NCBI GenBank assembly: GCA_022813865.1
Contig: JALDZX010000042.1
Coordinates: forward strand, 175,560-195,559
DNA length: 20,000 bases
Reading direction: 5' to 3'
Origin: Xylographa opegraphella
Lineage: Eukaryota
The position numbers were made by a program, and so were the translations under genes. The notes beneath the pieces were generated by a model. The model was not told where the DNA came from. It saw nothing but the letters and a program-made list of their open reading frames with translations, and did no database searches. This document shows positions 1,508 through 20,000 of the stretch, in pieces; the first letter of the stretch is position 1, and every line of letters starts with the position of its first letter.

Positions 1508-4500
1508 TCATGTCGAGGCCTCGTTGAAGATATCCCTCATCACTGGTCTACTACCCAGTAATTGCCTTACATCCATCGTCCCCTTCTTTTCAGGGGTTTT
1601 CCGCTTGCCTGCACCTCTCCTGAGAGCGCTCCTATCTTCTCCTCTGACCTTCCCAGTTCTTTGTTTCACAGGTTCATCCTCATGGACCTTTACACTTGCT
1701 TGCGTCACCAGATCCTCAAAGAGATGCACCTCCAATGCGTTCTGCGCCAAATCGAACTTCCAGCCTTTCTCATCAATCAGCCCACAGAGTTTGCCTAGTA
1801 GCTCGCTGCCTTTCTTCATGGTATCCCAGCTCCCCACTATGAGCAGTTTTGTTCGCGCCCTTGTCAACGCAACGTTCACCCTTCTCCAGTCTTTCAACAA
1901 CTCACCCACGTTGCCCGTCTCGTTACTCCGCACCAGCGAGAGGACAACAACCTCCTTATCGCGACCCTGGAACCTGTCTGCGGTGTGCATTTCGACCCCG
2001 CTAGCTCCTTGGTTGTCTCTCGAAATAGAAGATTTTAGGCGAAGGTTCTGCTTGAGAAGCGCCAGTTGACTGCGGTAGAGCGTAATGACACCAATATCGG
2101 TAGCTTTCACGCCGACAGTGAGCAGAGATTCAACCAGCTGCGTCGTCACACTTGCTTCGATTGGATTGGTTATTCGCGAGCCATTCGCAATCTCGCGGGA
2201 TAGCGGGAAAAGCCGATCTGTGTTTATAAAAGCAACCTTGACTGCTGGGTCGAACAAGTCACGGATCCAGCATGCCCCGGGGTTAGCGGCCGGACAAAAT
2301 GCGGACGCTGTAGATGAAATAGTGGAAGGGGTGTAATGATGTGCGCACATTGCTGACATATCAGGTATAAAGATCTCGCTGTTTGCGACTTCAGAAGTGC
2401 CACACTTGAGACGGCCGTTGTAGATAAGAGTATTGCTCAATGTCATAATATCCTCGCACATGCGGTATTGGTGCTCAAGATTGACAACAGACAATGGATG
2501 TTTCTCGGACAGTAACTTGAAGAGACTGATGTCCAATCCTCCTTCCTGGGCCTCCCTGTTCTGCACAAGTGGAGGGAGTTGATAGTGGTCCCCAACAAGG
2601 ATGAAAGTTCTGGCCATTCGGATTGGACCAAGGCAAACGGGCAGCGTGATCTGCGATGCCTCATCGACAATACAGTAGTCAAAGATACGCTGATTGAATA
2701 TCGGATGGTTGATGCCGAGGCAAGTAGTGGCGACTACTTGGTTGCTGTACGATCTCTTTAGTTCTTCCACTGTAGTCTTCGGTACGGCGGCAAGATCTGC
2801 AAACTCTTGCACTTGAGAATGGACCTTAGCAACGGCACCCAGCCGAAGGACCCCGATCCCATCATTGCGGATCTTTAGAAGAATATTATCCACGGCCGTA
2901 TGCGTGTAGGAGGTGAGAAGGACACTTTTTCCTTGTGCTGTGAGAGCACGGATGATGTGCGCAATTGTGGTAGTTTTTCCGGTTCCTGGCATTCCAAGCA
3001 CCAGAGCATAATCCCTAGCACACATGACCTTCTCGATGGCGTTTCTCTGGCCAACGTTCAGACTCGATTGGCTAGCTGTGTCGAACGTCATGGGAGCAGC
3101 ATTTACGAAGGTTGGGGCGACGCCTTCGACAACCAGTTTCCGAAGTGCTTGCGCGCCAAATAGATCCAATTCCATGATGCGAATCAGATTGCTACGGACC
3201 ATTGCCATCCCGTTGCTAAACTCATCTTTGTCAAGTCTATATAAGACTGGTTCTTCCGGCTGCTGAGGCATCATCGTGGACTGATGGTCCCCTTCCTCCA
3301 CAATCTCCATGATACCTGAAAACGACTGGTTGGTTTCGGCATCAAAGCCCTTACTCCTAACTCGAACATTGTGAAGACGTCGGTCAACAGCAACAGTAAT
3401 ACGGTGCTTTCGGACATGTGTGACGTATCCATTCGCCAACGCAAAATGACCCTTCTCGTCGGATATCACGATGGGTTCGCCGATGGTGATCTGCGAATCT
3501 GTGAACGCAAATGTTGGCTGAGCCTTTTCTTTTATAAAAGAATAACGAAAGCGATTGATTTTGGGAGCATCCGTTAGCTCAACAGCAGAACCAGGCTCGA
3601 TTACGACGTTGCCAAAACATCTACCGACTCTTTCTCTTTCCGAGCTAAGCATTGTCCACAATTCTCTCCTGAATTTGAGCACGTCGGCTTCTTCTTTTGT
3701 CAAGAGGTCATCCCACTTCTTGAAGAAGTCTTGATGGATTGGTTGCAGATGACTCACAAGCTCATCAAACTTTTTGTTCATACCGCTCGTGGTCCCATTT
3801 CCATTGTCGACGAGCTTATGGTAGATGAAACAAGGAGTCTTTGCATAACATCGGCCGCAAAGATGGGGACTCTTCAGCATAGGAGGAAGTTCAAGCCGAC
3901 GACGAACATAACAGGCAAGCTCATTCCGTTGCATGATCATATGTCGTAACTCGTGCCGGATAGCTGGAATGCGGGAAATTTCAGAAGTTTCCATGTAATA
4001 CAGTATCCCGTAAGCAATCTGAACATCTATAATGCTACATTCAGCAACTATTAACATTCGACCGGACGAATTACTCACCGTATCTATCGGACAGCAGGAG
4101 TGTATATAGTGCGGTTTGAGCCTTATGAGCAGCATTCGAGTTGTTCTTACCTGTTTTGACCTCGAAAGGTACTGTGAGAGTCCTCTCCTCTTCGCCGTCT
4201 TTCATCAGAACTTGCACGGTGGCATCGACGTTGCCCTTGAGACCGTACATAGGTGACCAGACATGCTCCTCAACGTCTAAAAGCTTGTTGATACTCATGA
4301 GAGCCTGAGCACCGTTACGATCCTTGACTACAGCTTCATTCTGTATCTAGTCAGCAAATGACATCTATGTTGTTAGGAGAATCACGTACTCGGGGTCGGA
4401 CTGTAACAAATACTTCAGCCCATGACTGCAACTCTGGAACCTTGCTTGTGAGATGATCGACAGCTTTGGCCATGTCGACATTAATCTCGAAAAGTGTCTC

Positions 4501-9534: not shown

Positions 9535-9881
9535 ACCAGTTCTTTCGTCTGCAACGATCCCTCTTGGTCCGGAGCAAGTCGCGTTTCTGGCCCTTACGAA
9601 CCGTCGAGCTTGTGAAAGTCTCAAGACAGCTATGGCGTCATAGGGCTGTAGATTAGGACTGTAAACAATGAGGCGCTTCCGTATTGTGACACCGCTGGCT
9701 GAGTCACTCCATATGTTCGCAAATCTTTGCGGAAGGAGTCACTCGATTCTTCTCAAGTCGTCCAAAATGCCTTTTCTCTTATGTCAAATCTTGTAGCCTC
9801 GCTGTAGACAGAATCTCTTGTTTTGCAACTCACCATTTGAATCGTTCGCTCCTGCGCACACAGCTCTTCAGTTTCTCGACC

Positions 9882-12338
9882 ATGGCATCACATACCCGTC
9901 CCCCGTATGTACCACAAACCCCTCAGCATGTTGCGGATCTCCTCCTGAATCTCGAGGCCGGGATCAAGAAGAGCAGAGGCGGTTTCTCTTGTAAAAAGTC
10001 GACCTTCAAAGTTTCCTCGGCTCATGGCGTGACTGTGGACTCATGGCGCTTTTCGGACTGGGATTACAAGCGCGATGATTTACCAACTTATGCTCGCGGT
10101 TTTTTCACATACAGAACCAAACAAGGGACTCCTGAAATTGCAGTTAGAGGATACGATAAGTTCTTCAATGTTGGCGAAGTGAACGATACCCATTGGCGGA
10201 ACGTTGAGACCGGCACCAAAGGACCGTATGAGCTCAGCGTGAAGGAGAACGGATGCATTATATTCCTTGCAGGCCTCGAAGACGATGTACTGCTAGTGTG
10301 CAGCAAGCATTCTACGGGCCCAAGGCAGGACGCAGACCTGAGCCATGCTGTGGCAGGAGAAAAATGGGTCGACAAGCATTTGGCCGCCATTGGAAAGACG
10401 AGGCTAGATCTAGCACGAGAGTTGAGAAACAGAAATATCACCGCTGTTGCAGAGCTCTGTGACGACACGTTTGAGGAACACGTTCTTGCTTACGACGAAA
10501 AGTCAGCTGGTCTTTATATTCATGGTATGAATCTGAATCTTCCAGAATTTGTGACTTATCCAGGTCCATTGGTACATGAATTTGCGGATCAATGGGGATT
10601 CAAGAAAGCTGAGTATCTATTCAAGGACGACATAGAGACCGTCAAAACGTTTCTTGACGGTTGTGCAGAAACGGGTTCTTTTGAGGGGAAAGACACCGAG
10701 GGGTTCGTCATACGATGCCAAAAAAGCGTCGGTGGTAAGAGTGGCCCTTACGCTGATTGGTTCTTCAAATATAAGTTTGAAGAGCCATATCTATTGTACA
10801 GACAATGGCGCGAGTGTACAAAAGCCATAATTTCCGGAAGGGTTCCAAAGTACAAAAAGCACAAGAAGATCACAGAAGAATATCTGCTATACGCACGACG
10901 TCAACTTGCACAGAATCCGCAACTTGGAAAGGCATATAACGCTAATCATGGTATAATTAAAATGAGGGATGGGTTTCTGCAGGAACGTGGACTGAAAGCC
11001 TCCGATATCATTCGTGATGAGCGCTCCGAGGAACCGCTAACCGCTGATATCCTCCGCAATGTGGTTCTGGTTCCTATTGCCACTATTGGATGCGGCAAGA
11101 CAACTGTTGCCGTAGCCCTGACAAAGCTCTTTGGCTGGGGCCATATTCAGAATGACAACATAACTGGGCAGAAAGGGCGCCCCAAGCAATTCGCTATTCA
11201 GCTGTGCAACAGCATGGCACAGCATGCAGTCGTTATTGCGGACCGAAACAACCATCAGAAGCGAGAGCGGAAGCAAATAATTGACGATATATCCCAGGTT
11301 GTCCCCGATGTTCGATTTGTTGCACTTCATTACGTTCACGACCCAAAATCTCAAATGCTCCCCGAAATACGTAGAGTTACACGCGAAAGGGTACTGAATC
11401 GGGGGGACAATCATCAGACAATCCAGGCAGGATCGAAAGATCAGTCGGAAATAATTGGTATTATGAATGGCTTTCTGGATCGATTTGAGCCTCTTAACCC
11501 TGAGGCTGAGCCAGACAGCGGGTTCGACGAGGTAATCAACCTGGATGTTATAGAGTCCTCTCGTCATAACCTGGAAACTGTTGTCAATACCCTTCGTGCT
11601 GCCTATCCGAAGCTCATTCCGGAAGCACCTACGGCCATGGAACTCGACGAGGCAATAGCAGCGGCATTGGATGAATATCAGCCAGATATCAAGCATGATT
11701 TGAGTTTTCAATCAAAAAATAATAACAAGGGTCTCGGTGATGCACAGAGCTCCAATTGGCGTGAAAATCGGAGAATTGCTCAAGAACCAAAGTCAAAGTC
11801 GGACAAGATCGAATACTTTTGTCTTCGGGTCCCAACGACCCAAATTGTTTCAATCCTTGAATCAACATTTCGTTCGCAAGCCCCGATAGTGTCCAGATTC
11901 TATCATCAGCTGCAGCAGACTCGCCGTGTTCAGCCATCGTTTCACGTCACCCTCATTCACCGAAGTGCTATGCCTCAACATAAGGACCTCTGGCAGCGGC
12001 TCACTTCCCTACATATAGGTGCTTCGGCTTCCCAGAATCACATTGCAGAGCCAGTTTTGGGCAAATGCCGTGCCCAACTCGAAAGGGTAGTTTGGGACGA
12101 CCGGGTGATGTGCATCATTGCACGAATAGTGGATCAGCAATGGGAAAGTGTCAACACCGTCCCCCACGTGACGATCGGAACTGCTAGCCCGTCCATCAAA
12201 CCCAAAGAGAGTAACGACCTGCTATTACGGTGGTTAAACCATGGAGCAAGCGAAGAGACTGGTATTCACGATGTCTTACTCCTTGGGGAAGCTGACGTGT
12301 ATGGGGAGGTGAAGGCTGTGCTGCCCGGGACAAGGTAA
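9882..12338 (+). CDS. TRL1: Fungal tRNA ligase (ligase, polynucleotide kinase and cyclic phosphodiesterase domains), single exon
   Basis: Ligase motifs RGYDKFFN, ELSVKENGCII (motif I Lys) and EGFVIR; kinase P-loop IATIGCGKTT and ADRNNH; 2H phosphodiesterase motifs FHVTL and PHVTIG. First in-frame ATG at 9882. Confidence 0.96.
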   Translation: MASHTRPPYVPQTPQHVADLLLNLEAGIKKSRGGFSCKKSTFKVSSAHGVTVDSWRFSDWDYKRDDLPTYARGFFTYRTKQGTPEIAVRGYDKFFNVGEVNDTHWRNVETGTKGPYELSVKENGCIIFLAGLEDDVLLVCSKHSTGPRQDADLSHAVAGEKWVDKHLAAIGKTRLDLARELRNRNITAVAELCDDTFEEHVLAYDEKSAGLYIHGMNLNLPEFVTYPGPLVHEFADQWGFKKAEYLFKDDIETVKTFLDGCAETGSFEGKDTEGFVIRCQKSVGGKSGPYADWFFKYKFEEPYLLYRQWRECTKAIISGRVPKYKKHKKITEEYLLYARRQLAQNPQLGKAYNANHGIIKMRDGFLQERGLKASDIIRDERSEEPLTADILRNVVLVPIATIGCGKTTVAVALTKLFGWGHIQNDNITGQKGRPKQFAIQLCNSMAQHAVVIADRNNHQKRERKQIIDDISQVVPDVRFVALHYVHDPKSQMLPEIRRVTRERVLNRGDNHQTIQAGSKDQSEIIGIMNGFLDRFEPLNPEAEPDSGFDEVINLDVIESSRHNLETVVNTLRAAYPKLIPEAPTAMELDEAIAAALDEYQPDIKHDLSFQSKNNNKGLGDAQSSNWRENRRIAQEPKSKSDKIEYFCLRVPTTQIVSILESTFRSQAPIVSRFYHQLQQTRRVQPSFHVTLIHRSAMPQHKDLWQRLTSLHIGASASQNHIAEPVLGKCRAQLERVVWDDRVMCIIARIVDQQWESVNTVPHVTIGTASPSIKPKESNDLLLRWLNHGASEETGIHDVLLLGEADVYGEVKAVLPGTR

Positions 12339-12596
12339 TTGGGTGATGGAAGACTGGTTCATGGAAAGACCTAGTGGAATGCCATTATGATAGATGACGT
12401 GTATGATACAAAAGTTGGGGTTAAAAAAGTTTATGCTTGATTGATAGCTTGGTTCGTGTAGAATAGGTCCTGATTCGTCCCTGGAAATACCGCGTTGATC
12501 GCACTCATAGTCAATTCTTGATAATTCAGTATCTTCAGGTTTGATAAAATCCTTTTTCACCCAATTGTTGCAACCTGTACCCCCCTTCAGCACCAA

Positions 12597-14427
12597 ATGG
12601 GTACCGTGCCCTTGTCTGTAATGCCGGCAGAGGAAATCCTGGAGCATTACCTCGAAGACTACGAGACTCTGACTCGAAGCGATGCCTGGAGTCTCTACGT
12701 CTCCCATGCGCTGTCCACATGGAATGCGAGATCATACGAGTTCGCTGCAGTAGGCAGAATCGTGGCTGATGTGATATGTTGCTGATTTCGTGACAGATTC
12801 TCTTCACAGCAGCAGCATTTCCCAACACTCTTCTTGCATCTTCTGTCAGGTTGGGTCACTCACGCAGAGTGGTAAATTGCTTCGTAGCTAGAGTCTTACA
12901 TATCACAGAGGTCTTTGCAATACAATCGCTGCACTATGCCTCTCTTCGTGGATCGGCATACAGATCGACGAGTCCCATTCCAGACTCCACACCCTTCTGC
13001 TTACCATTTCAACTAACAGGGCATCTGTGATACTGGCTTGCTTTGGATGGTATTTACTTCTGAGGCTTGGAAGTCCGACAAGCCCTTCAAGCTCTTTAGA
13101 ACTTACGGCATCACGACCCGCAACGAGTCCAGAGCATGTGTTGTCATGGTGGCTCTTCGCCTTAGTGATCGTGCTTGGTATCCTCGAAAAGCTCAGTGGT
13201 ATTGGCAACATGATCTGCATGGAAAGAGACTGGGTCCCTACCCTGGCGACTACCTCCAGTGAAGATATACAGCACAAATTCCCCCTCACCCACCTCAATG
13301 CGGTAATGCGCCGGATTGACCTGCTGTGCAAGCTAATATCGCCACTCATTATCTCAGTGGTAATTATAGTCACCTCTACACCTGGGGGCATTGTGCTTGT
13401 GGGCCTCATGAGTACCATAAGCTGGATTGTAGAAGTCTACTGTGCACGGCGAGTCTGGAATTCATGTGGCCGTCTTCGAAAACGGGAAGTGGAGCAGCTG
13501 AATGTGGCCGCCGGAGGAACATCGTTCAGAAGTAAACTCAAAAGCAATTATCGGATGCTGAATGGTTGCTTGAAACAGTGGTCCCAGATTGCGGACTATT
13601 TCTCTACTGATGTCTGGGTTCCGTCACTATCGCTTGCACTACTACATGTTTCTGCGCTGTCTTACTCTGCAACATTTGTCACATTTTGCTTGAACAGTGG
13701 GTTCTCTTTGTTGGTCATAACAATTGCAAGAGCCGCGGGAAGTGTCGTCGAGGTCTCAAGCACTTTCATTACCCCTATTGGTGTCAACCGTCTCGCTACT
13801 TCTAAAGGGAATTGTGACCAGACAGAGGATGACCAAGGACTTCTGGATAGCATTGACCCGAGGAAGCTAAAGGAGCACTCCATAGGTCTGGCACGCAGCG
13901 GTCTTTGGGGCATTATTTTGCAGCTTGTGACTTTGGTCAGCCCAGGCCCTCAGCTTGTTTGCTGTTGCTGACACCTTCAGGTACCGGTCGTGTGTGCGAC
14001 ATGGTACCTCACGGGCCACGAATCTCCAGGCCATCTTGATATCTTGTCCCGCTTCCTGCCTTTAGCCTCTCCGTTCGCCTCGCGCCTATTTCCCGCTGTG
14101 GTCATGTTCACCTTCCTGTCACTCTCTCGCCTTGGGCTTTGGGTCTTTGACCTCACAACCCAAGAGATTACACAGACGGGAGTCCAAAGCCGAATACGAT
14201 CGTCCTTCGCAGGGATCGAAATGGCATTCGTGTCGTTCTTCGAGCTGAGCCAGTGGCTTCTTGCAGCTGTTGTTTCACGTCCGGAGCAATTCCACTGGCT
14301 GGCTCTGGGTAGCCTTGGAGCGGTGCTGTGCTCGACTTGCATGTATGCGTGCTGGGTCAGGGGACAGCGAGGCCATTTGACGCACTGGGATCGGCTGGGG
14401 CAGGCTTGCTATCGCGCGAAGGCTTAG
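12597..14427 (+). CDS. FPN1: Ferroportin-family (FPN1/SLC40A1-like) iron-regulated transporter, ~559 aa; exons 12597-12749, 12797-12849, 12909-13935, 13981-14427
   Basis: Spliced frame LYVSHALSTWNARSYEFAA/ILFTAAAFPNTLLASSVR/G... with family-type motifs MERDWVP, LNAVMRRIDLLCKLISP and LSRLGLWVFDLTTQEITQ, plus many hydrophobic helices. Alternative ATG at 12621. Confidence 0.88.
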
Positions 14428-15260
14428 GGCTGACTTGATCAGGTCAGCTGCGGTCTTGACTTTTGAGAGGTGATACCTTGATTTAATTCTTGAATGTCGT
14501 ATGAACGGGCCCCGAAAGTCCTGAGGCAGAACTGGAAGGGGGCCCAGCGGAAGAAGTATAAGATTCTCGGGCATTCAATGCTTTACAGGCCGTCGTACAT
14601 ATTTTCCCGCTGTCAAGGCCGCCAGCATCCCAAGGTAGCCTCCGTGAAGGATGTGTGACGAAGACGAGCCGCAGCGAGCGATCGCGTGTCTGACCTGGTC
14701 CCGACGTATTCGCCGAATGAACTTGGGAACGGCTTCCTCCAGAGGCTTCGGCTCAACCGCCGAGAAACGCAGACCTGCTGGTCTATTGATGGCGATGCGC
14801 CCTTGGAGCTGAGGCCGTGTTTATCGACAGTCTAGGAATATTGCTCTGTTGATGATGTTTGTCACGACTCCAGGACAAATGAACATTCGTATCACTGTAC
14901 GAACCAAAAACAGAATCGAAGTTTTAATACACTTTACAATTCCAACAAGCAAAGGTTATCATTAGGTATTCGATTGTCATTCTACCGGAATCATAAGTTC
15001 GTTATTTCATGTCTCGAGCGGCCCAGCAAACGTAGCCAGTGCATGCAAGCATTCATCAAACACGCCAGTCTTCAGTATAGTATAGCAGCATGGGCAGCAT
15101 GGCTTCCGCAGCATCCTTTGGCCCTACCTTTCGAGCGAAAAATGTCTCTGATCTCTCCATGGCAGTTGCCTTATATCTCCCTTCTCTCCATGCTCCCCAT
15201 ACCATCAGGTACGCATGCCTATCGGTCCAATCATGTGCCTCTCAAGCCGTGATTGCGGGT

Positions 15261-17042
15261 TCAGTATCTCATGGGTGGCAGTCCCATCGGAGGAGGAGGC
15301 AGCCCACCCGCAGAGTACGGGTTGCCATCGTTGTATCTCGGACCATAAGTATCGATATATCTTCGGTTCAAGTCTGGCTCCGAGTTGCGGTAACTCCCCG
15401 CTCCCCCGTGCTGGAGGCGTTCCTGCTTCGCACGCCGTTTCTGCCTCTTCTCATCAAGCTCTTCGCACGTTTTGTGGTACTCTTCGCGCTGTTCCTTCAT
15501 CTCTTTCCATTCACTATAAGCACCCTTGATTCCAAGTGCGGCAATCCCAACACTGGCGGCGTCTTGAAGGTAACCTTTCCTCTTGAGCTTCTCCTCTTCC
15601 TCCTTGCTAATCTTGCCTGCTGCGAACTGTTCCTTGCGCTTCTCACGCTTCTCTCTAGTTTGATAAATACTATGGGCAGCGTGAATGGTCGCAACCGTAG
15701 CCAAGCCTGCCGTGACCAACTCCTTCGTGTGCATTTTCTTTTGCTTCTTGATCTCTTCGTCCGACGAGTAGTCCGTCGAACTGTCGTGCTCTCGGTACTC
15801 TTCCCCACCACCGCCACGCGGACGAGGAGCATAGCCATCATCATACCCTCGTGGACTCTGACGTGAGACCCGATCGTCATATCCTCTTCGACTGCGGTCA
15901 TTCTCTCGACGCTCCTTGCGTTCCTTGTCCTCGCTGGTGTCGATACCGATGGCTGCCTTGCCCTTGTCGAGCCCTCGAGTGATGAAGGCTGACACGCTAT
16001 TGCTCCGTCTCCGTGGGGGACTGCGACTGTCATCCGAGTCATACCCTCGACCCCGGTCTTTAGACTTGTTCCGGTAGTTATTGAGCGCTTGGCCTGCGAG
16101 AGCCGCAAGACCACCAGCAGCCGCAAGGCCACCGAGACCGGGTCCGTTGTCGTCCTTTCGACCGTTGCGTCCCCGAGATCTTGACCTCGATCGTGCTCCG
16201 TTGATCAAGCGGTTGCCCGCTAAGCCTCCCAGAGCAGCTTCAATGGTGTGTCGAGTGCTGTGGTGACCTGGATCCTTGTCAATCGCTCCATCAATGCCTG
16301 CGGCCCCGATCGCAGCCGTCAACACCCGTTTGCCCTGAGCGGCAAAACCTCCGGGCTCATTGCGCGACCGAAAGGCTTCCACTGCTCCTGCGGCCAACGC
16401 TGCCTTGACAGCCTGCTGGATTTTCTTCGACCCGTCATCAGAGCGAGACCGCGATCGTGAGCGGGAGTCTCCACGACCGCTGCGACTTCGAGCTCGTTCC
16501 CGATGCCCTCTGGACGATGCGGCACCAGCGGCGCCTCCAAGCCCTAGCGCTGCGAGGGCCTGCTCACCAAGGGACTTACGACGTTGCCGGGGTGGACTTT
16601 CCGACTCCGAATCGGAATCATAGCGGCTACGTCTGCTCGCTGTACCGCCGTGCTTGAGTCAGCAGTTATCAACATCGTAGACTCGGCAGATGTTACCTCT
16701 ATCATCGCGCCGGCCGCTCCGCCTTCCGCCTTCGGACCGCCTCGAGTTGCCATAACGGTCATCATTGTATGAATGCTCGACCGAGCGCGCACGTGGGGCG
16801 CCGTACTTGTCGCGAACAGTGGTGCGACGGTAGACATTCGCACCCTCGCCTGGAGCGAAGTCACGTCGGACTTCCTCCACGGACGAGACACTATCGTCAC
16901 GCGGCCGTCTCACCAGGTCCATCTGGCGCTGAGGTCGGCTGCTCCGGGTCTCGATGACTTCGTCCTCTTCATAGACAGGACGACGGGACTGGTGATGTGA
17001 TCTGTGCCGCCTGGGCGGATCGTCATCGTAGTAACTTCCCAT
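15261..17042 (-). CDS. DUF3824-type fungal RS/D-rich protein, ~574 aa; exons 17042-16697, 16639-15261
   Basis: A GTAACA...CTGAC...CAG intron at 16696-16640 joins the 127-aa ORF in frame to the upstream extension of the 378-aa ORF. Characteristic blocks RRKSLGEQALAALGLG, IQQAVKAALAAGAVEAFR, KELVTAGLATVATIHAAH and LQDAASVGIAALGIKGAYSEWKE. Confidence 0.8.
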
Positions 17043-18243
17043 GCTTGCTTCTTGCTGGTTCGCACGTGCAGGATAAGGCCGTAAGACGCTCGAGCGTTCG
17101 TGCTAGTCAATGTGTGGAGCAGACGAGGTCAATGCACTTCGAGTTCGGCGACTGCAATGTGAATCGAGGCTTCTGGTGAATTCCTCGAACGTGATCGAGA
17201 GTCGTGACCGAGCAGTGTTGGTCGAATGCGGCGGAGTATGATCTGGGTTTCTGGGATTTCTGGTCGCGAAAGATTGTCGGCTGGGTTTTGTTTTATGGCA
17301 GCGCAGCGAGGGTTCGGCCGAGTGTTGGGGTTGGTTTGATAGCTGCAGCGCTCCGTGTTAGGGATGTCACAGACTAGAATAGAAGCGGGGAAGCGATGTC
17401 AAGCACGAGTGAATGGAAAGAAAGAGCACGTTGGAGGTTGAGGGTGTCCACAATATTCATTACAATCGTTGGTCTTTTGGAAGGAGAAAGAAAGGCGTCG
17501 GGCGGATCGGAAGAGGAAGAGGAAGAAGGCAGGGAAGAGTGATGTGACTTGGCACAGGCGCATGTGGCTGGAGCGAGAGAGAGAGGGCACGTCACCGGTA
17601 CTGCACCCGTGGACCGGCTAAGGTAGCGTGTGGTGGGTGATCGGAGCTTCAATCGAATTCACCTCCGTTCCACTTCAACTCGATCAGGAATGAATTGCCA
17701 ATTATGGCGCAGAACATGGCTGCCTCAGCATGTTGACCCGCTGTGATGTGACACACGCGCCGCAGTGATTCCTCAGATACGGAGCATCGGTTCTGTGAGT
17801 TTCGGTGGAGACAAGGCCTGATACTCCACCCCGTGTCGCCCGTGCCTCCGTGCTCCGACACGCACCGAAAAGCCCCGCCCCGCCACTAAAAAGGCTTGTT
17901 TCTCCCCGCGACGCCCCGCTCATTCGGGCGACGGATGGCCTGTGACTGAAGCCCTTCGCTCCGTTGGCCCAATCTTCTCCTCCGTGCACGCTGCAGTGAA
18001 TCGCGAGCACGAAGCAGTCCCAGCCGACCACGGACTCCACACTTGCGAAGAGCGGCGGACATTCGAATACTTAAGCACGAGGATGGCCCAGCTTTCCTCC
18101 ACCACGATGAGGCCGACCCTAAAGAGAAACGTGGCGGCGTCGACAACGTCATCAATCTCAACTGTTCATGTTCGAGAGCTCGATGGCTTCTTCGTTGGGC
18201 TTGCAATACTTGACCGCAACAAACTGGACCATCTCTTTCTGTG

Positions 18244-19386
18244 ATGTCCTTCAACAATACCAACACCGACATCCTCGTGGTATGCTCCATTTCACGTCTT
18301 CACAATCGGTGTGCTGACACGCAGCTCTAGGCCGGTGCCTTTGCTGCATTCTCCGTTGACCTCTTAGTGTATCCGCTCGATACCATCAAGACCCGCGTCC
18401 AGTCCCCTGACTACAAACGCCTGTATACAAATGCTTCCACAAACACCATCAACCGATCCTTGTTCCGAGGGTTGTATCAAGGTATTGGCAGTGTCGTCAT
18501 CGCAACGGTCCCGTCATGTAAGAGAGGCAGCTCCATTGATTCCTGTCAACAACCCACTGACTTCGAGTGATAAGCGGGCGCTTTCTTCACCACATACGAG
18601 GGGACCAAAAGCCTCCTGCATCGCCTCAATCCTTCGGTTGGCACAAACGGCTCACCGATGATCCCCACGCCATTCATTCATTCCGCCGCTTCGTCCGTCG
18701 CGGAGCTGGTCTCTTGCTTCATCTTGACGCCCGCCGAGGTCCTGAAGCAAAATGCACAGGTGGTGCAAAAATCGGCATCTGCCTCAACGCAAGCCTTCGA
18801 CGGCAACGCAACCATCCAGGCCATACGGAAGTTCAATAAGCCAAGCCAGTTGTGGAGAGGTTACACCACCCTCGCGGCAAGGAATTTGCCCTTCACCGCC
18901 ATGCAATTCCCCATGTTCGAGCACCTGAAACAGTCGATCCTATCCTACCGACAGCAGCACGGGCTGGCTCGCTGGACTCTGCTGGAGAAAGGCCTGATCA
19001 CCGCTCTCTCCGCTGGTACTGCAGGCTCAATCGCGGCTGTCATCACGACCCCAGTTGACGTGGTGAAGACACGGATCATGCTGAGCGCGGCCGTCGAGAA
19101 GGGTGTGGAATGTGGTCGGGGCACGCAAGCGCGGACGCAAGCCGAAACCCAAGGCAAGGATGGTAACGTCGAATGGAAAAAGGCTCAGCGCACAGCACCG
19201 GCTGGTCGATCCGGAGGCCTCGCGGTCGGCCAAGAGATACTGCGAACCGAGGGTCTCAAAGGCTTGTTCCGAGGAGGTAGCCTCCGAGCTGTCTGGACCG
19301 CGCTGGGAAGCGGGTTGTATCTGGGTGTTTACGAGACCGGCCGCACTTATCTGGAGGAACGAAGGGACACGGAGAGGGTCATTTAA
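18244..19386 (+). CDS. Mitochondrial carrier protein (SLC25), S-adenosylmethionine carrier (SAM5/PET8)-like; exons 18244-18279, 18331-18517, 18575-19386
   Basis: Spliced MSFNNTNTDILV/AGAFAAFSVDLLVYPLDTIKTRVQS...VPS/SGAFFTTYEG..., with signatures PLDTIK, PAEVLKQ and PVDVVKTR, and RNLPFTAMQFPMFE resembling SAM-carrier helix 4. The substrate is inferred only. Confidence 0.85.
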
Positions 19387-19574
19387 TACTGAGTTACGAT
19401 CGATCATATTGACTTTATACACCACTTTGTCCTACTTGACCTGCTTCCCGTACATATTCTCACTGCTATCTTCGTGAATCGTGACCGTTCGCAGTTTATC
19501 AGTTACATTCAGTCAGATCTTTGGTTTTTGTACATATGCATTATGAATATTTGTTCGAGTCGAAAGGATACTGA

Positions 19575-19850
19575 GGCCTTGTATACATTATATATGAAAG
19601 AGTAGATCTGAAGCAGACCACGGCGCTTGCGCCGAAACTGGCGGTGCTGGCCCTGATAGCAATGAGAGTCTGCTATCAATTAAACAAAAAATTGCATACC
19701 TATAATAACTGGCCGATGTCATTGTGGTTTGTGGAGAGTTTCCTGTTAAACCTTGAATACCGAGTGGGCACCCTACGAGCCCAGCACACTGCAGCTGAAC
19801 GGGAACGATTAGTGGCAGAGTTTAACGACTTCAATTCGTTCATCCAGGTT
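19575..19850 (+). pseudogene. Truncated fragment of an SNF2-like (SF2) helicase C-terminal domain, broken by the telomere
   Basis: Stop-free frame after the TGA at 19572: GLVYIIYERVDLKQTTALAPKLAVLALIAMRVCYQLNKKLHTYNNWPMSLWFVESFLLNLEYRVGTLRAQHTAAERERLVAEFNDFNSFIQV. The order PKL...K-(motif IV-like)-W...ER..LV..FN....IQV follows the HELICc layout of SNF2 proteins and ends just before motif V. Recognised by eye. Confidence 0.7.
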
Positions 19851-19940
19851 CAGGTTCAGGTTCAGGTTCAGGTTCAGGTTCAGGTTCAGGTTCAGGTTCA
19901 GGTTCAGGTTCAGGTTCAGGTTCAGGTTCAGGTTCAGGTT
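19845..19940 (+). repeat. Perfect (CAGGTT)16 array, equivalent to a TTCAGG variant telomere-like repeat
   Basis: Directly visible: 96 bp, 16 perfect CAGGTT units (15 full TTCAGG units at 19849-19938). Confidence 0.97.
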
Positions 19941-20000
19941 AGGGTTAGGGTTAGGGTTAGGGTTAGGGTTAGGGTTAGGGTTAGGGTTAGGGTTAGGGTT
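19941..20000 (+). repeat. Canonical telomere repeat (TTAGGG)n; right chromosome end
   Basis: Ten perfect AGGGTT units running to the end of the window, with the G-rich strand oriented 5'->3' toward the end as expected for a telomere. TTAGGG is the standard Pezizomycotina repeat. Confidence 0.95.

What the first reader, a model, noticed from the sequence alone, without database searches (positions are those of the whole stretch)
19845..20000. Two-tier telomere: perfect (TTCAGG)n block capped by canonical (TTAGGG)n, with the inner repeat equal to the last two codons at the break
Seen: 16 perfect CAGGTT units switch in a single step, in 6-bp register and with no mixed units, to 10 AGGGTT units. 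The first CAGGTT is also the Gln-Val codon pair ending the helicase-like frame (ATC CAG GTT = IQV, residues that fit the domain at this position). Known: Pezizomycotina telomerase makes TTAGGG. TTCAGG is a reported telomere motif in the plant genus Genlisea, but I do not know it from fungi. TTCAGG differs from TTAGGG by two substitutions or by a C insertion plus G loss, so it is not a simple point-decayed telomere. Inference, three models: (a) telomerase seeded on the GGTT of a broken gene and the junction hexamer was then amplified by slippage or recombination; (b) a second template or enzyme (variant telomerase RNA paralogue or another reverse transcriptase) first heals ends with TTCAGG, then normal telomerase takes over; (c) a lineage caught switching telomere motif. 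Model (b) or (c) would be a new end-maintenance system.
Basis: partly seen in the sequence, partly recalled or inferred. Interest (0 to 1): 0.85.

Follow-up and report, generated by a model that had tools for sequence, protein, structure and literature searches.

The report
Odd repeat block under fungal telomere
A fungal chromosome end that broke inside a helicase gene carries sixteen exact copies of the gene's last six bases before the normal telomere repeat; it looks real, but I could not tell a local copying accident from a second repeat-making template.

Summary
Window 19845-19940 is (CAGGTT)16 with no mismatch. It switches in register to (AGGGTT)10, which is TTAGGG, running to the window's last base. 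The flank 19593-19850 is a real relic of an SNF2-family helicase C-terminal domain (54 phmmer hits, best 3.8e-12). The first CAGGTT supplies the Gln-Val that homologues carry there, after which they continue L-V-T-S. An independent k=31 contig of a public run, 92 kb at depth 165, runs from unique DNA exactly 30 bases into the TTCAGG block with no other letters. That argues against an assembler error or a nanopore repeat-calling error for this junction. The known nanopore miscalls are different units. No whole genome is held, so other chromosome ends, telomerase RNA and spanning reads could not be examined. Best reading (0.45): a terminal break healed by ordinary telomerase on GGTT, with the last native hexamer amplified locally as a proximal variant-repeat block. 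Rivals are copying from, or healing at, an existing TTCAGG array (0.20), a second TTCAGG template (0.10), an artefact (0.07) and an interstitial tract (0.05). This is a new variant of a known kind, of moderate interest.

The parts
18574..19386 (+). Last coding stretch of a mitochondrial carrier gene. This is the nearest intact-looking gene, ending 458 bases before the repeat block.
   Evidence: Pfam Mito_carr 2.2e-27; the ORF ends at 19386.
19387..19592 (.). Spacer between the carrier gene and the helicase relic, with no detected homology.
   Evidence: Homologue matches start at 19617-19629 by tblastn and at about query residue 6-9 by phmmer. Nothing matched upstream of that.
19593..19850 (+). 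Relic of an SNF2-family helicase C-terminal domain. It matches about residues 900-975 of homologues that are 1150-1440 residues long. The frame is open from 19575, and the N-terminal SNF2 domain is absent.
   Evidence: 54 phmmer hits, best 3.8e-12. Helicase_C in 11 of 13 and SNF2-rel_dom in 7 of 13 scanned hits. Alignment A1. In a tblastn of 11 hits against the window, only 19617-19844 matches at E<1e-8 and all other matches have E>=0.19. Pfam on the relic alone found 0 families.
19845..19850 (+). First CAGGTT unit. It encodes the native Gln-Val of the helicase frame (FNDFNSFIQV), after which homologues continue L-V-T-S.
   Evidence: At these two positions Gln occurs in 24 of 51, Val in 25 of 51 and Ile in 15 of 51 placed homologues. 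One example is P0034, FNDFNNSIQVLMTS. None of the 51 has QVQV.
19845..19940 (+). Inner tier: (CAGGTT)16, which is (TTCAGG)n, with no mismatch.
   Evidence: The first 30 bases are joined to unique DNA in a depth-165 k=31 contig of run X1.
19941..20000 (+). Outer tier: (AGGGTT)10, the canonical TTAGGG repeat. The G-rich strand runs 5'->3' to the window's last base, and the junction shares GGTT with the last inner unit.

Best explanation
This is a real chromosome end of an ascomycete. The chromosome was truncated inside an already 5'-deleted SNF2-family helicase gene. Ordinary telomerase caps the end, priming on the GGTT 3' end of a CAGGTT unit and adding TTAGGG in register. The 16 CAGGTT units are a local tandem amplification of the last native hexamer. 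Because it has the telomere's 6-base period and shares GGTT, it behaves like a variant repeat at the base of the telomere. Telomerase does not resynthesise that zone, and replication slippage or misaligned repair can expand homogeneous blocks there. SHOWN: the two arrays; the helicase relic; the first unit being native coding sequence; the relic and its junction with the block being present without a branch in accurate reads. INFERRED: that the end is terminal, that it arose by break and healing, and that the block arose by local amplification, whether before or after healing.
For: The array and switch are exact. The first unit is the native Gln-Val of a conserved VQV-LVTS stretch, so the unit's sequence pre-existed at this site. 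The CAGGTT|AGGGTT junction is what telomerase priming on GGTT gives; seed-primed de novo telomeres are documented in a filamentous ascomycete (PMC7367193 passages; PMC8381367 passages). Housekeeping genes sit within 20 kb of the end with no subtelomeric repeat: Dna2-like, tRNA ligase, ferroportin-like and a mitochondrial carrier. That fits a healed terminal truncation. The X1 contig (91,988 nt, depth 165.3, 0 other letters, 0 gaps) runs 18500-19874. It stops at the last unique 31-mer. It does not break at the relic's borders, so the relic is single-copy at k=31 and was not recently copied from an extant paralogue. Homogeneous blocks of variant repeats that gain and lose units by replication-dependent processes are known in the proximal part of human telomeres (PMC2764434 abstract).
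Against: I found no precedent for a 16-fold amplification of a junction hexamer; searches listed none. The sequence offers almost no microhomology for the first duplication: at a 6-base offset only GGTT matches, and that would duplicate TTAGGG, not CAGGTT (my reading). Neither strand of the block folds, with a minimum free energy of 0 kcal/mol for both, so hairpin-driven slippage is not supported. The relic's frame is still open over 92 codons, so the gene died recently and the amplification must have been fast. None of 51 placed homologues has a QV repeat at this site. Whether other TTCAGG arrays exist in this genome is unknown.
Confidence: 0.45

Rival explanations
1. A (TTCAGG)n array already existed, either as a microsatellite elsewhere or at another chromosome end. 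The broken end, terminating in ...CAGGTT, annealed to it by 6-7 bases of microhomology and copied units from it (microhomology-mediated break-induced replication or template switching). It then either ran to that donor's telomere or dissociated and was capped by telomerase on GGTT. A close variant: a hexamer microsatellite had grown in the dead gene before the break and then served as the preferred healing site, because every unit ends in the seed GGTT.
For: A full 6-base match between the native end and the unit is what microhomology-guided copying needs. BIR and capture of internal sequence at naked ends are described for Magnaporthe oryzae chromosome ends (PMC7367193 passages). Short TTCAGG runs next to TTAGGG units do occur in nature: metagenome contig L002 has about seven TTCAGG then two TTAGGG, internally.
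Against: No donor array is known, and I could not search the genome. Any 6-mer has thousands of matches in a ~31 Mb genome, so nothing singles out a microsatellite as donor (inference). None of 51 homologues has a repeat at this site. The relic looks young, with an open frame, which leaves little time for a microsatellite to grow before the break.
Confidence: 0.2
2. A second end-synthesis template exists. This would be a telomerase RNA paralogue with a CCUGAA-type template, or another reverse transcriptase with its own RNA. It heals breaks by adding TTCAGG to a matching 3' end, after which the canonical telomerase takes over. Alternatively the lineage is switching motif.
For: A perfect 96-base array with one sharp in-register switch is what templated enzymatic synthesis gives. 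Two telomerase RNA paralogues that both make telomere repeats are documented in Mimulus lewisii (PMC12169523 abstract). In a fungus, a block of variant hexamers, TTCGGG(TTTGGG)8, comes with the telomeric retrotransposon MoTeR (PMC7367193 passage).
Against: TTCAGG differs from TTAGGG at two positions. There is a single block at this end rather than interspersed blocks. A 6-of-6 native seed is far longer than the 1-4 nt seeds seen in 19 of 24 M. oryzae de novo telomeres, so it is better explained if the native hexamer is the source of the unit. No RT or element lies between the flank and the block. No fungal TTCAGG telomere turned up in the papers listed. I found no two-tier end elsewhere: 6 metagenome loci were all degenerate internal tracts, and prokaryote genome contigs gave 0.
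Confidence: 0.1
3. Sequencing or assembly artefact: the true end is ...ATCCAGGTT(AGGGTT)~26, and the inner 16 units are miscalled.
For: The total tract, 26 units or 156 bases, is about the length of a normal fungal telomere; 20-30 repeats are given for P. oryzae (PMC8381367 passage). Nanopore basecallers are known to turn telomere repeats into perfect blocks of a wrong unit (PMC9414165 passages). The only run that holds the locus may be the assembly's own data.
Against: A k=31 contig at mean word depth 165.3, from a contig set of 30.6 Mb in total, carries unique DNA plus 30 bases of TTCAGG with 0 other letters, and ends exactly at the last unique 31-mer. Such clean, deep 31-mers indicate accurate reads; that is my inference, since the library type is not on record. 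The published miscalls are TTAAAA, CTTCTT and CCCTGG, and 'TTCAGG' and 'CCTGAA' occur 0 times in that paper's main text. A 4-base overlap (GGTT) cannot cause an assembler mis-join (inference).
Confidence: 0.07
4. The TTAGGG tract is not terminal. The window is merely cut at 20000 and the contig continues, which would make this an internalised telomere or interstitial repeat.
For: The window is exactly 20000 bases, and nothing I could run shows the contig's end.
Against: The G-rich strand points 5'->3' to the window's end, as at a true right-hand telomere, and the tract is perfect. Long perfect interstitial tracts are described as extremely rare and unstable in P. oryzae (PMC8381367 passage).
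Confidence: 0.05

Closest known systems
De novo telomere formation (chromosome healing) at truncated ends in the ascomycete Magnaporthe/Pyricularia oryzae (PMC7367193 and PMC8381367; passages read)
   Same: Unique or genic sequence is cut and joined directly to TTAGGG repeats through a short seed that matches the repeat. Here the seed is GGTT.
   Different: There, TTAGGG follows the seed at once. Here, 16 copies of the last native hexamer lie between the break and the TTAGGG.
Proximal telomere variant repeat arrays in human telomeres, e.g. (CTAGGG)n and (TCAGGG)n (PMC2764434; abstract read)
   Same: Homogeneous blocks of a non-canonical hexamer lie at the inner end of the telomere, in the same period, under pure TTAGGG. 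They change by small replication-dependent gains and losses.
   Different: The human variants are one-base derivatives of TTAGGG. This unit differs at two positions and is identical to the flanking native gene sequence. Only one end was seen here.
Heterogeneous telomeres made from two telomerase RNA paralogues, Mimulus lewisii (PMC12169523; abstract read)
   Same: Two different repeat units occur in one telomere.
   Different: That case is a plant with both templates demonstrated. Here no telomerase RNA could be looked for, and the variant forms one inner block only.
Variant repeats TTCGGG(TTTGGG)8 at the 5' ends of MoTeR telomeric retrotransposons (PMC7367193; passage read)
   Same: A fungal block of non-canonical hexamers is joined to TTAGGG tracts at chromosome ends.
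   Different: Those repeats belong to an RT-encoding element. Here the flank is a helicase-domain relic and no element is present.
Nanopore repeat-calling errors at telomeres (PMC9414165; passages read)
   Same: Perfect blocks of a wrong hexamer sit next to correct telomere repeats, with sharp switches. The TTTAAAA blocks reported from nanopore reads of Chenopodium (PMC10521516 abstract) look to me like the same kind of call; that is my inference.
   Different: The reported wrong units are TTAAAA, CTTCTT and CCCTGG. Here the unit is TTCAGG, and its first 30 bases are present in a depth-165 k=31 contig.
I saw only search listings of plant telomere reviews that hold the string and read none of them. 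With word-start matching, many such hits are TTCAGGG, as in the one paper I opened.
   Same: The hexamer is the same.
   Different: There it is the terminal telomerase product of a plant. Here it is internal to TTAGGG, in an ascomycete.

Membership tests
Canonical TTAGGG telomere | Tandem TTAGGG with the G-rich strand running 5'->3' to the end | tested here: met
   10 perfect units at 19941-20000 on the + strand.
Canonical TTAGGG telomere | Physically terminal: the contig and reads end in the tract, and it is Bal31-sensitive | not testable with these tools
   No genome is held. No contig piece was laid on 19875-19952.
De novo telomere addition at a broken gene | Coding sequence truncated in mid-domain directly at the repeats | tested here: met
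   The Helicase_C relic stops at ...FNDFNSFIQV, where homologues continue LVTS.
De novo telomere addition at a broken gene | Short seed complementary to the telomerase template at the junction with TTAGGG | tested here: met
   GGTT is shared at 19937-19940.
De novo telomere addition at a broken gene | Canonical repeats follow the native sequence directly | tested here: not met
   15 extra CAGGTT units intervene.
De novo telomere addition at a broken gene | Relatives or other strains carry the intact gene and distal DNA | not testable with these tools
Proximal telomere variant-repeat block | Same period and register as the canonical repeat, located on its inner side | tested here: met
   Period 6, with a single in-register switch.
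Proximal telomere variant-repeat block | Unit is a simple (one-step) derivative of the canonical repeat | tested here: not met
   CAGGTT and AGGGTT differ at two positions, and the unit equals the native flank.
Dual-template telomerase (telomerase RNA paralogues) | Two telomerase RNA genes with different templates | not testable with these tools
   No genome is held. Rfam found nothing in the window.
Dual-template telomerase (telomerase RNA paralogues) | Variant unit present at most chromosome ends with unrelated flanks | not testable with these tools
   Only this end is available.
Telomeric retrotransposon-borne variant repeats (MoTeR type) | RT-encoding element adjoining the variant repeats | tested here: not met
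   The flank is an SNF2 Helicase_C relic and a carrier gene. No RT family appears among the Pfam hits of the window's large ORFs.
Nanopore repeat-calling artefact | Wrong unit is one of the described miscalls and is absent from accurate reads | tested here: not met
   The described miscalls are TTAAAA, CTTCTT and CCCTGG. 30 bases of TTCAGG are joined to unique DNA in a depth-165 k=31 contig. Caveat: the library type is not on record, and the run may be the assembly's source.

The most novel reading that the evidence does not exclude
This ascomycete has a second end-synthesis template: a telomerase RNA paralogue or another RT-borne RNA reading CCUGAA. It heals broken ends by adding TTCAGG to a matching 3' end, and canonical telomerase then caps the product. 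That would be a two-enzyme or two-template end-repair system not described in fungi.
Probability: 0.1. Interest if true: 0.85.

Novelty: new variant of a known kind. Interest (0 to 1): 0.45.

Why it matters
If the local reading is right, the base of a newly healed telomere can turn an arbitrary native hexamer into a ~100-base satellite that sits in the telomere's register. That would be one concrete route by which telomere variant repeats and subtelomeric satellites arise. It is also a warning for tools that infer telomere motifs from contig ends. If the enzymatic reading is right, it would be the first dual-template end maintenance in fungi. It would be directly testable, because TTCAGG needs dCTP in the G-strand and TTAGGG does not.

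Tried and rejected
- **Whole genome:** none is held, so I could not count chromosome ends or look for telomerase RNA, TERT or Penelope-like elements.
- **Earlier findings of this scan:** nothing for this genome, for the words, or for the sequence.
- **Word-index protein search of the relic against longer proteins:** 77 candidates, none scored. The exhaustive phmmer search then found the family.
- **Metagenome scan for (TTCAGG)2(TTAGGG)2:** 6 loci, all degenerate telomere-like tracts inside GC-rich contigs. None is a two-tier end.
- **Scan of prokaryote genome contigs for (TTCAGG)3(TTAGGG)2:** 0 matches, as expected for that collection.
- **Protein-word search with the minus-strand frame of the arrays, (NP)n(NL)n, to catch gene calls over other such ends:** 32 proteins at E<=10 among 457 candidates. 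I read 19 of them. All have short, interrupted runs (at most about 4-5 NL) embedded in unrelated sequence. This is uninformative.
- **Read laying:**
  - No piece was laid on 19875-19952, so the TTCAGG-to-TTAGGG junction and the copy number are not supported from reads. They are not contradicted either, since short or human-like contigs may be filtered.
  - Runs X2 and X3 (other organisms, same study) gave only two 38-39-base pieces in the carrier gene region and none on the repeats. That is no evidence either way.
- **The listing of cluster members:** switched off, so I could not see where the closest homologue P0001 lies.
- **Rfam on the window:** 0 matches.
- **Folding of both strands of both arrays:** no structure.
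- **Literature:** searches listed no paper on a TTCAGG block in a fungus or on amplification of a junction hexamer. I judged this from titles and abstract starts, plus passages of the papers named above. Supplements were not opened.

Full report
**What is there.** The last 156 bases of the window are two perfect hexamer arrays. TRF reports 19845-19940 as 16.0 copies of CAGGTT at 100% matches (score 192). It reports 19937-20000 as 10.7 copies of the TTAGGG phase at 100% matches (score 128). A string test confirms exactly CAGGTT x16 followed by AGGGTT x10, with no mixed unit. Neither repeat occurs anywhere else in the 20 kb. There are 15 matches to a 12-mer of the inner unit and 9 to one of the outer unit, all inside the arrays. 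About 0.08 and 0.06 are expected by chance, and 0 of 200 shuffles reach the observed numbers.

**The flank.**
- Pfam finds nothing in the 92-residue frame 19575-19850, and a word-index search of longer proteins finds nothing.
- An exhaustive phmmer search finds 54 proteins at E<=0.001, the best at 3.8e-12 and 60% identity.
- Of 13 hits scanned, 11 carry Helicase_C and 7 carry the SNF2-related domain. The full-length ones are 1123-1441 residues, and the relic matches about residues 900-975 of them.
- In a tblastn of 11 hits against the window, only 19617-19844 matches (E 2e-18 to 4e-9). Every other match has E>=0.19. The N-terminal ~900 residues of the gene are therefore not in the window.
- A mitochondrial carrier gene on the same strand ends at 19386.
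- The relic ends ...FNDFNSFIQV. Of the 54 hits, 51 could be placed at these positions; 3 were dropped because their alignment stopped before residue 84. The penultimate residue is Gln in 24 of 51. The last is Val in 25 of 51 and Ile in 15 of 51. Most hits then continue L-V-T-S, and none has a QV repeat.
- The first CAGGTT is therefore native coding sequence, and the frame is cut in mid-domain at or just after it.

**Is it an artefact?** One public run (X1) holds all 812 sampled words of window 12000-19880. It may be the data the assembly was made from, so it is not independent of the sample. Its k=31 contigs are, however, independent of the assembler.
- One contig of 91,988 nt, at mean word depth 165.3, lies on 18500-19874 with 0 other letters and 0 gaps, and ends there.
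- Position 19874 is exactly the end of the last unique 31-mer before the periodic block. That is where a k=31 graph must stop.
- So reads at full depth join the carrier gene, the relic and at least 30 bases of TTCAGG, with no branch at the relic's borders. The relic is single-copy at this resolution.
- The whole contig set is 30.6 Mb. From that and the depth I infer accurate reads (short reads or HiFi), although the library type is not on record.
- The published nanopore miscalls of telomeres are TTAAAA, CTTCTT and CCCTGG. TTCAGG and CCTGAA do not occur in that paper's main text (PMC9414165).
- What remains unsupported by reads is the TTCAGG-to-TTAGGG junction, the number 16, and whether the contig truly ends at 20000. 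No piece was laid on 19875-19952, which proves nothing because short or human-like contigs may be filtered.

**Context.** The window carries housekeeping-type genes up to the end: a Dna2-like helicase (1508-4201, minus strand), a fungal tRNA ligase (9690-12338), a ferroportin-like protein, and the carrier gene. There are no subtelomeric repeats. GC stays near 0.5. The tRNA ligase sits among Ascomycota clusters. A gene-dense core abutting a telomere, with a gene cut in mid-domain, is the picture of a healed terminal truncation. De novo telomeres primed on short seeds are documented in Magnaporthe oryzae (PMC7367193 and PMC8381367 passages). The outer tier needs no special explanation, because telomerase priming on a GGTT 3' end gives exactly CAGGTT|AGGGTT.

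**The inner tier.** This is the open question, and I see four kinds of reading.
- **Local amplification of the native hexamer (0.45).**
  - For: it explains the identity of the unit to the native codons by construction. It also resembles the homogeneous variant-repeat blocks at the inner end of human telomeres, which change by replication-dependent gains and losses (PMC2764434 abstract).
  - Against: there is almost no microhomology for the first duplication, and neither strand folds (minimum free energy 0 for both). The relic still has an open frame, so little time has passed. I found no precedent.
- **Copying from, or healing at, an existing TTCAGG array (0.20).** A 6-7 base match is what microhomology-guided copying requires. 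No donor array is known, and I could not look for one.
- **A second template, either a telomerase RNA paralogue as in Mimulus lewisii (PMC12169523 abstract) or an RT-borne one as with the MoTeR variant repeats (0.10).**
  - For: the perfection of the block fits templated synthesis.
  - Against: a 6-of-6 native seed is much longer than the 1-4 nt seeds seen in 19 of 24 M. oryzae events. There is one block and not a mixture, and no element is present.
- **An artefact (0.07) or an interstitial tract (0.05).**

**Searches for the same structure elsewhere.** All were negative or uninformative.
- Six metagenome loci share (TTCAGG)2(TTAGGG)2. All are degenerate internal tracts.
- Prokaryote genome contigs gave 0.
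- A protein-word search for gene calls across such arrays gave only short interrupted runs.
- The scan's earlier notes hold nothing.
- Literature searches listed no TTCAGG block in a fungus. Many 'TTCAGG' hits are the 7-mer TTCAGGG, as in the one paper I opened for it.

**Verdict.** This is a real and unusual two-tier chromosome end, best filed as a healed break with a locally amplified junction hexamer. That makes it a new variant of a known kind. The exciting alternatives are neither excluded nor tested, because only this one end could be seen. The decisive test is simple once the reads or assembly are in hand: count how many different unique sequences lead into a TTCAGG array.

Noticed in passing
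window 1508-4201 (-), 9690-12338 (+), 12892-13971 (+), 18574-19386 (+): Housekeeping-type genes lie within 20 kb of the telomere, with no subtelomeric repeat family or AT-rich block: a Dna2-like helicase, a fungal tRNA ligase with all three domains, a ferroportin-like protein and a mitochondrial carrier.
   Followed up: partly
protein P0001 (closest homologue of the relic), residues 1-10: Its N-terminus reads MLTLTLS..., and homology to the helicase domain starts right after it. LTLTL is what the C-rich strand of TTAGGG repeats translates to; compare the TLTL frame. This homologue may itself be a gene copy cut by a telomere in another genome.
   Followed up: no
proteins P0001-P0054: 43 of the 54 homologues are gene models under 400 residues that hold only the C-terminal helicase part, and several start at about the same point (M..Y..S.KL). 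Either this SNF2 family is often fragmented or pseudogenised in fungal genomes, or an intron boundary lies there.
   Followed up: no
L002:2056-2479 (minus strand as printed): A metagenome contig has about seven TTCAGG units followed by two TTAGGG units, then unique sequence on both sides. It is a small internal version of the same two-motif order.
   Followed up: no
L001:1597-1882 and L004:1547-1970: Two near-identical GC-rich metagenome contigs carry a short TTAGGG-like tract, including two TTCAGG units, facing a run of at least 8 CCCTAA units across an 18-base spacer. This is a head-to-head telomere-repeat arrangement.
   Followed up: no
window 19575-19850 (+): The relic keeps an open frame over 92 codons although both ends of the gene are gone. 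By my arithmetic, about 1% of random frames of that length would stay open. So the loss of the gene's two ends looks recent.
   Followed up: partly
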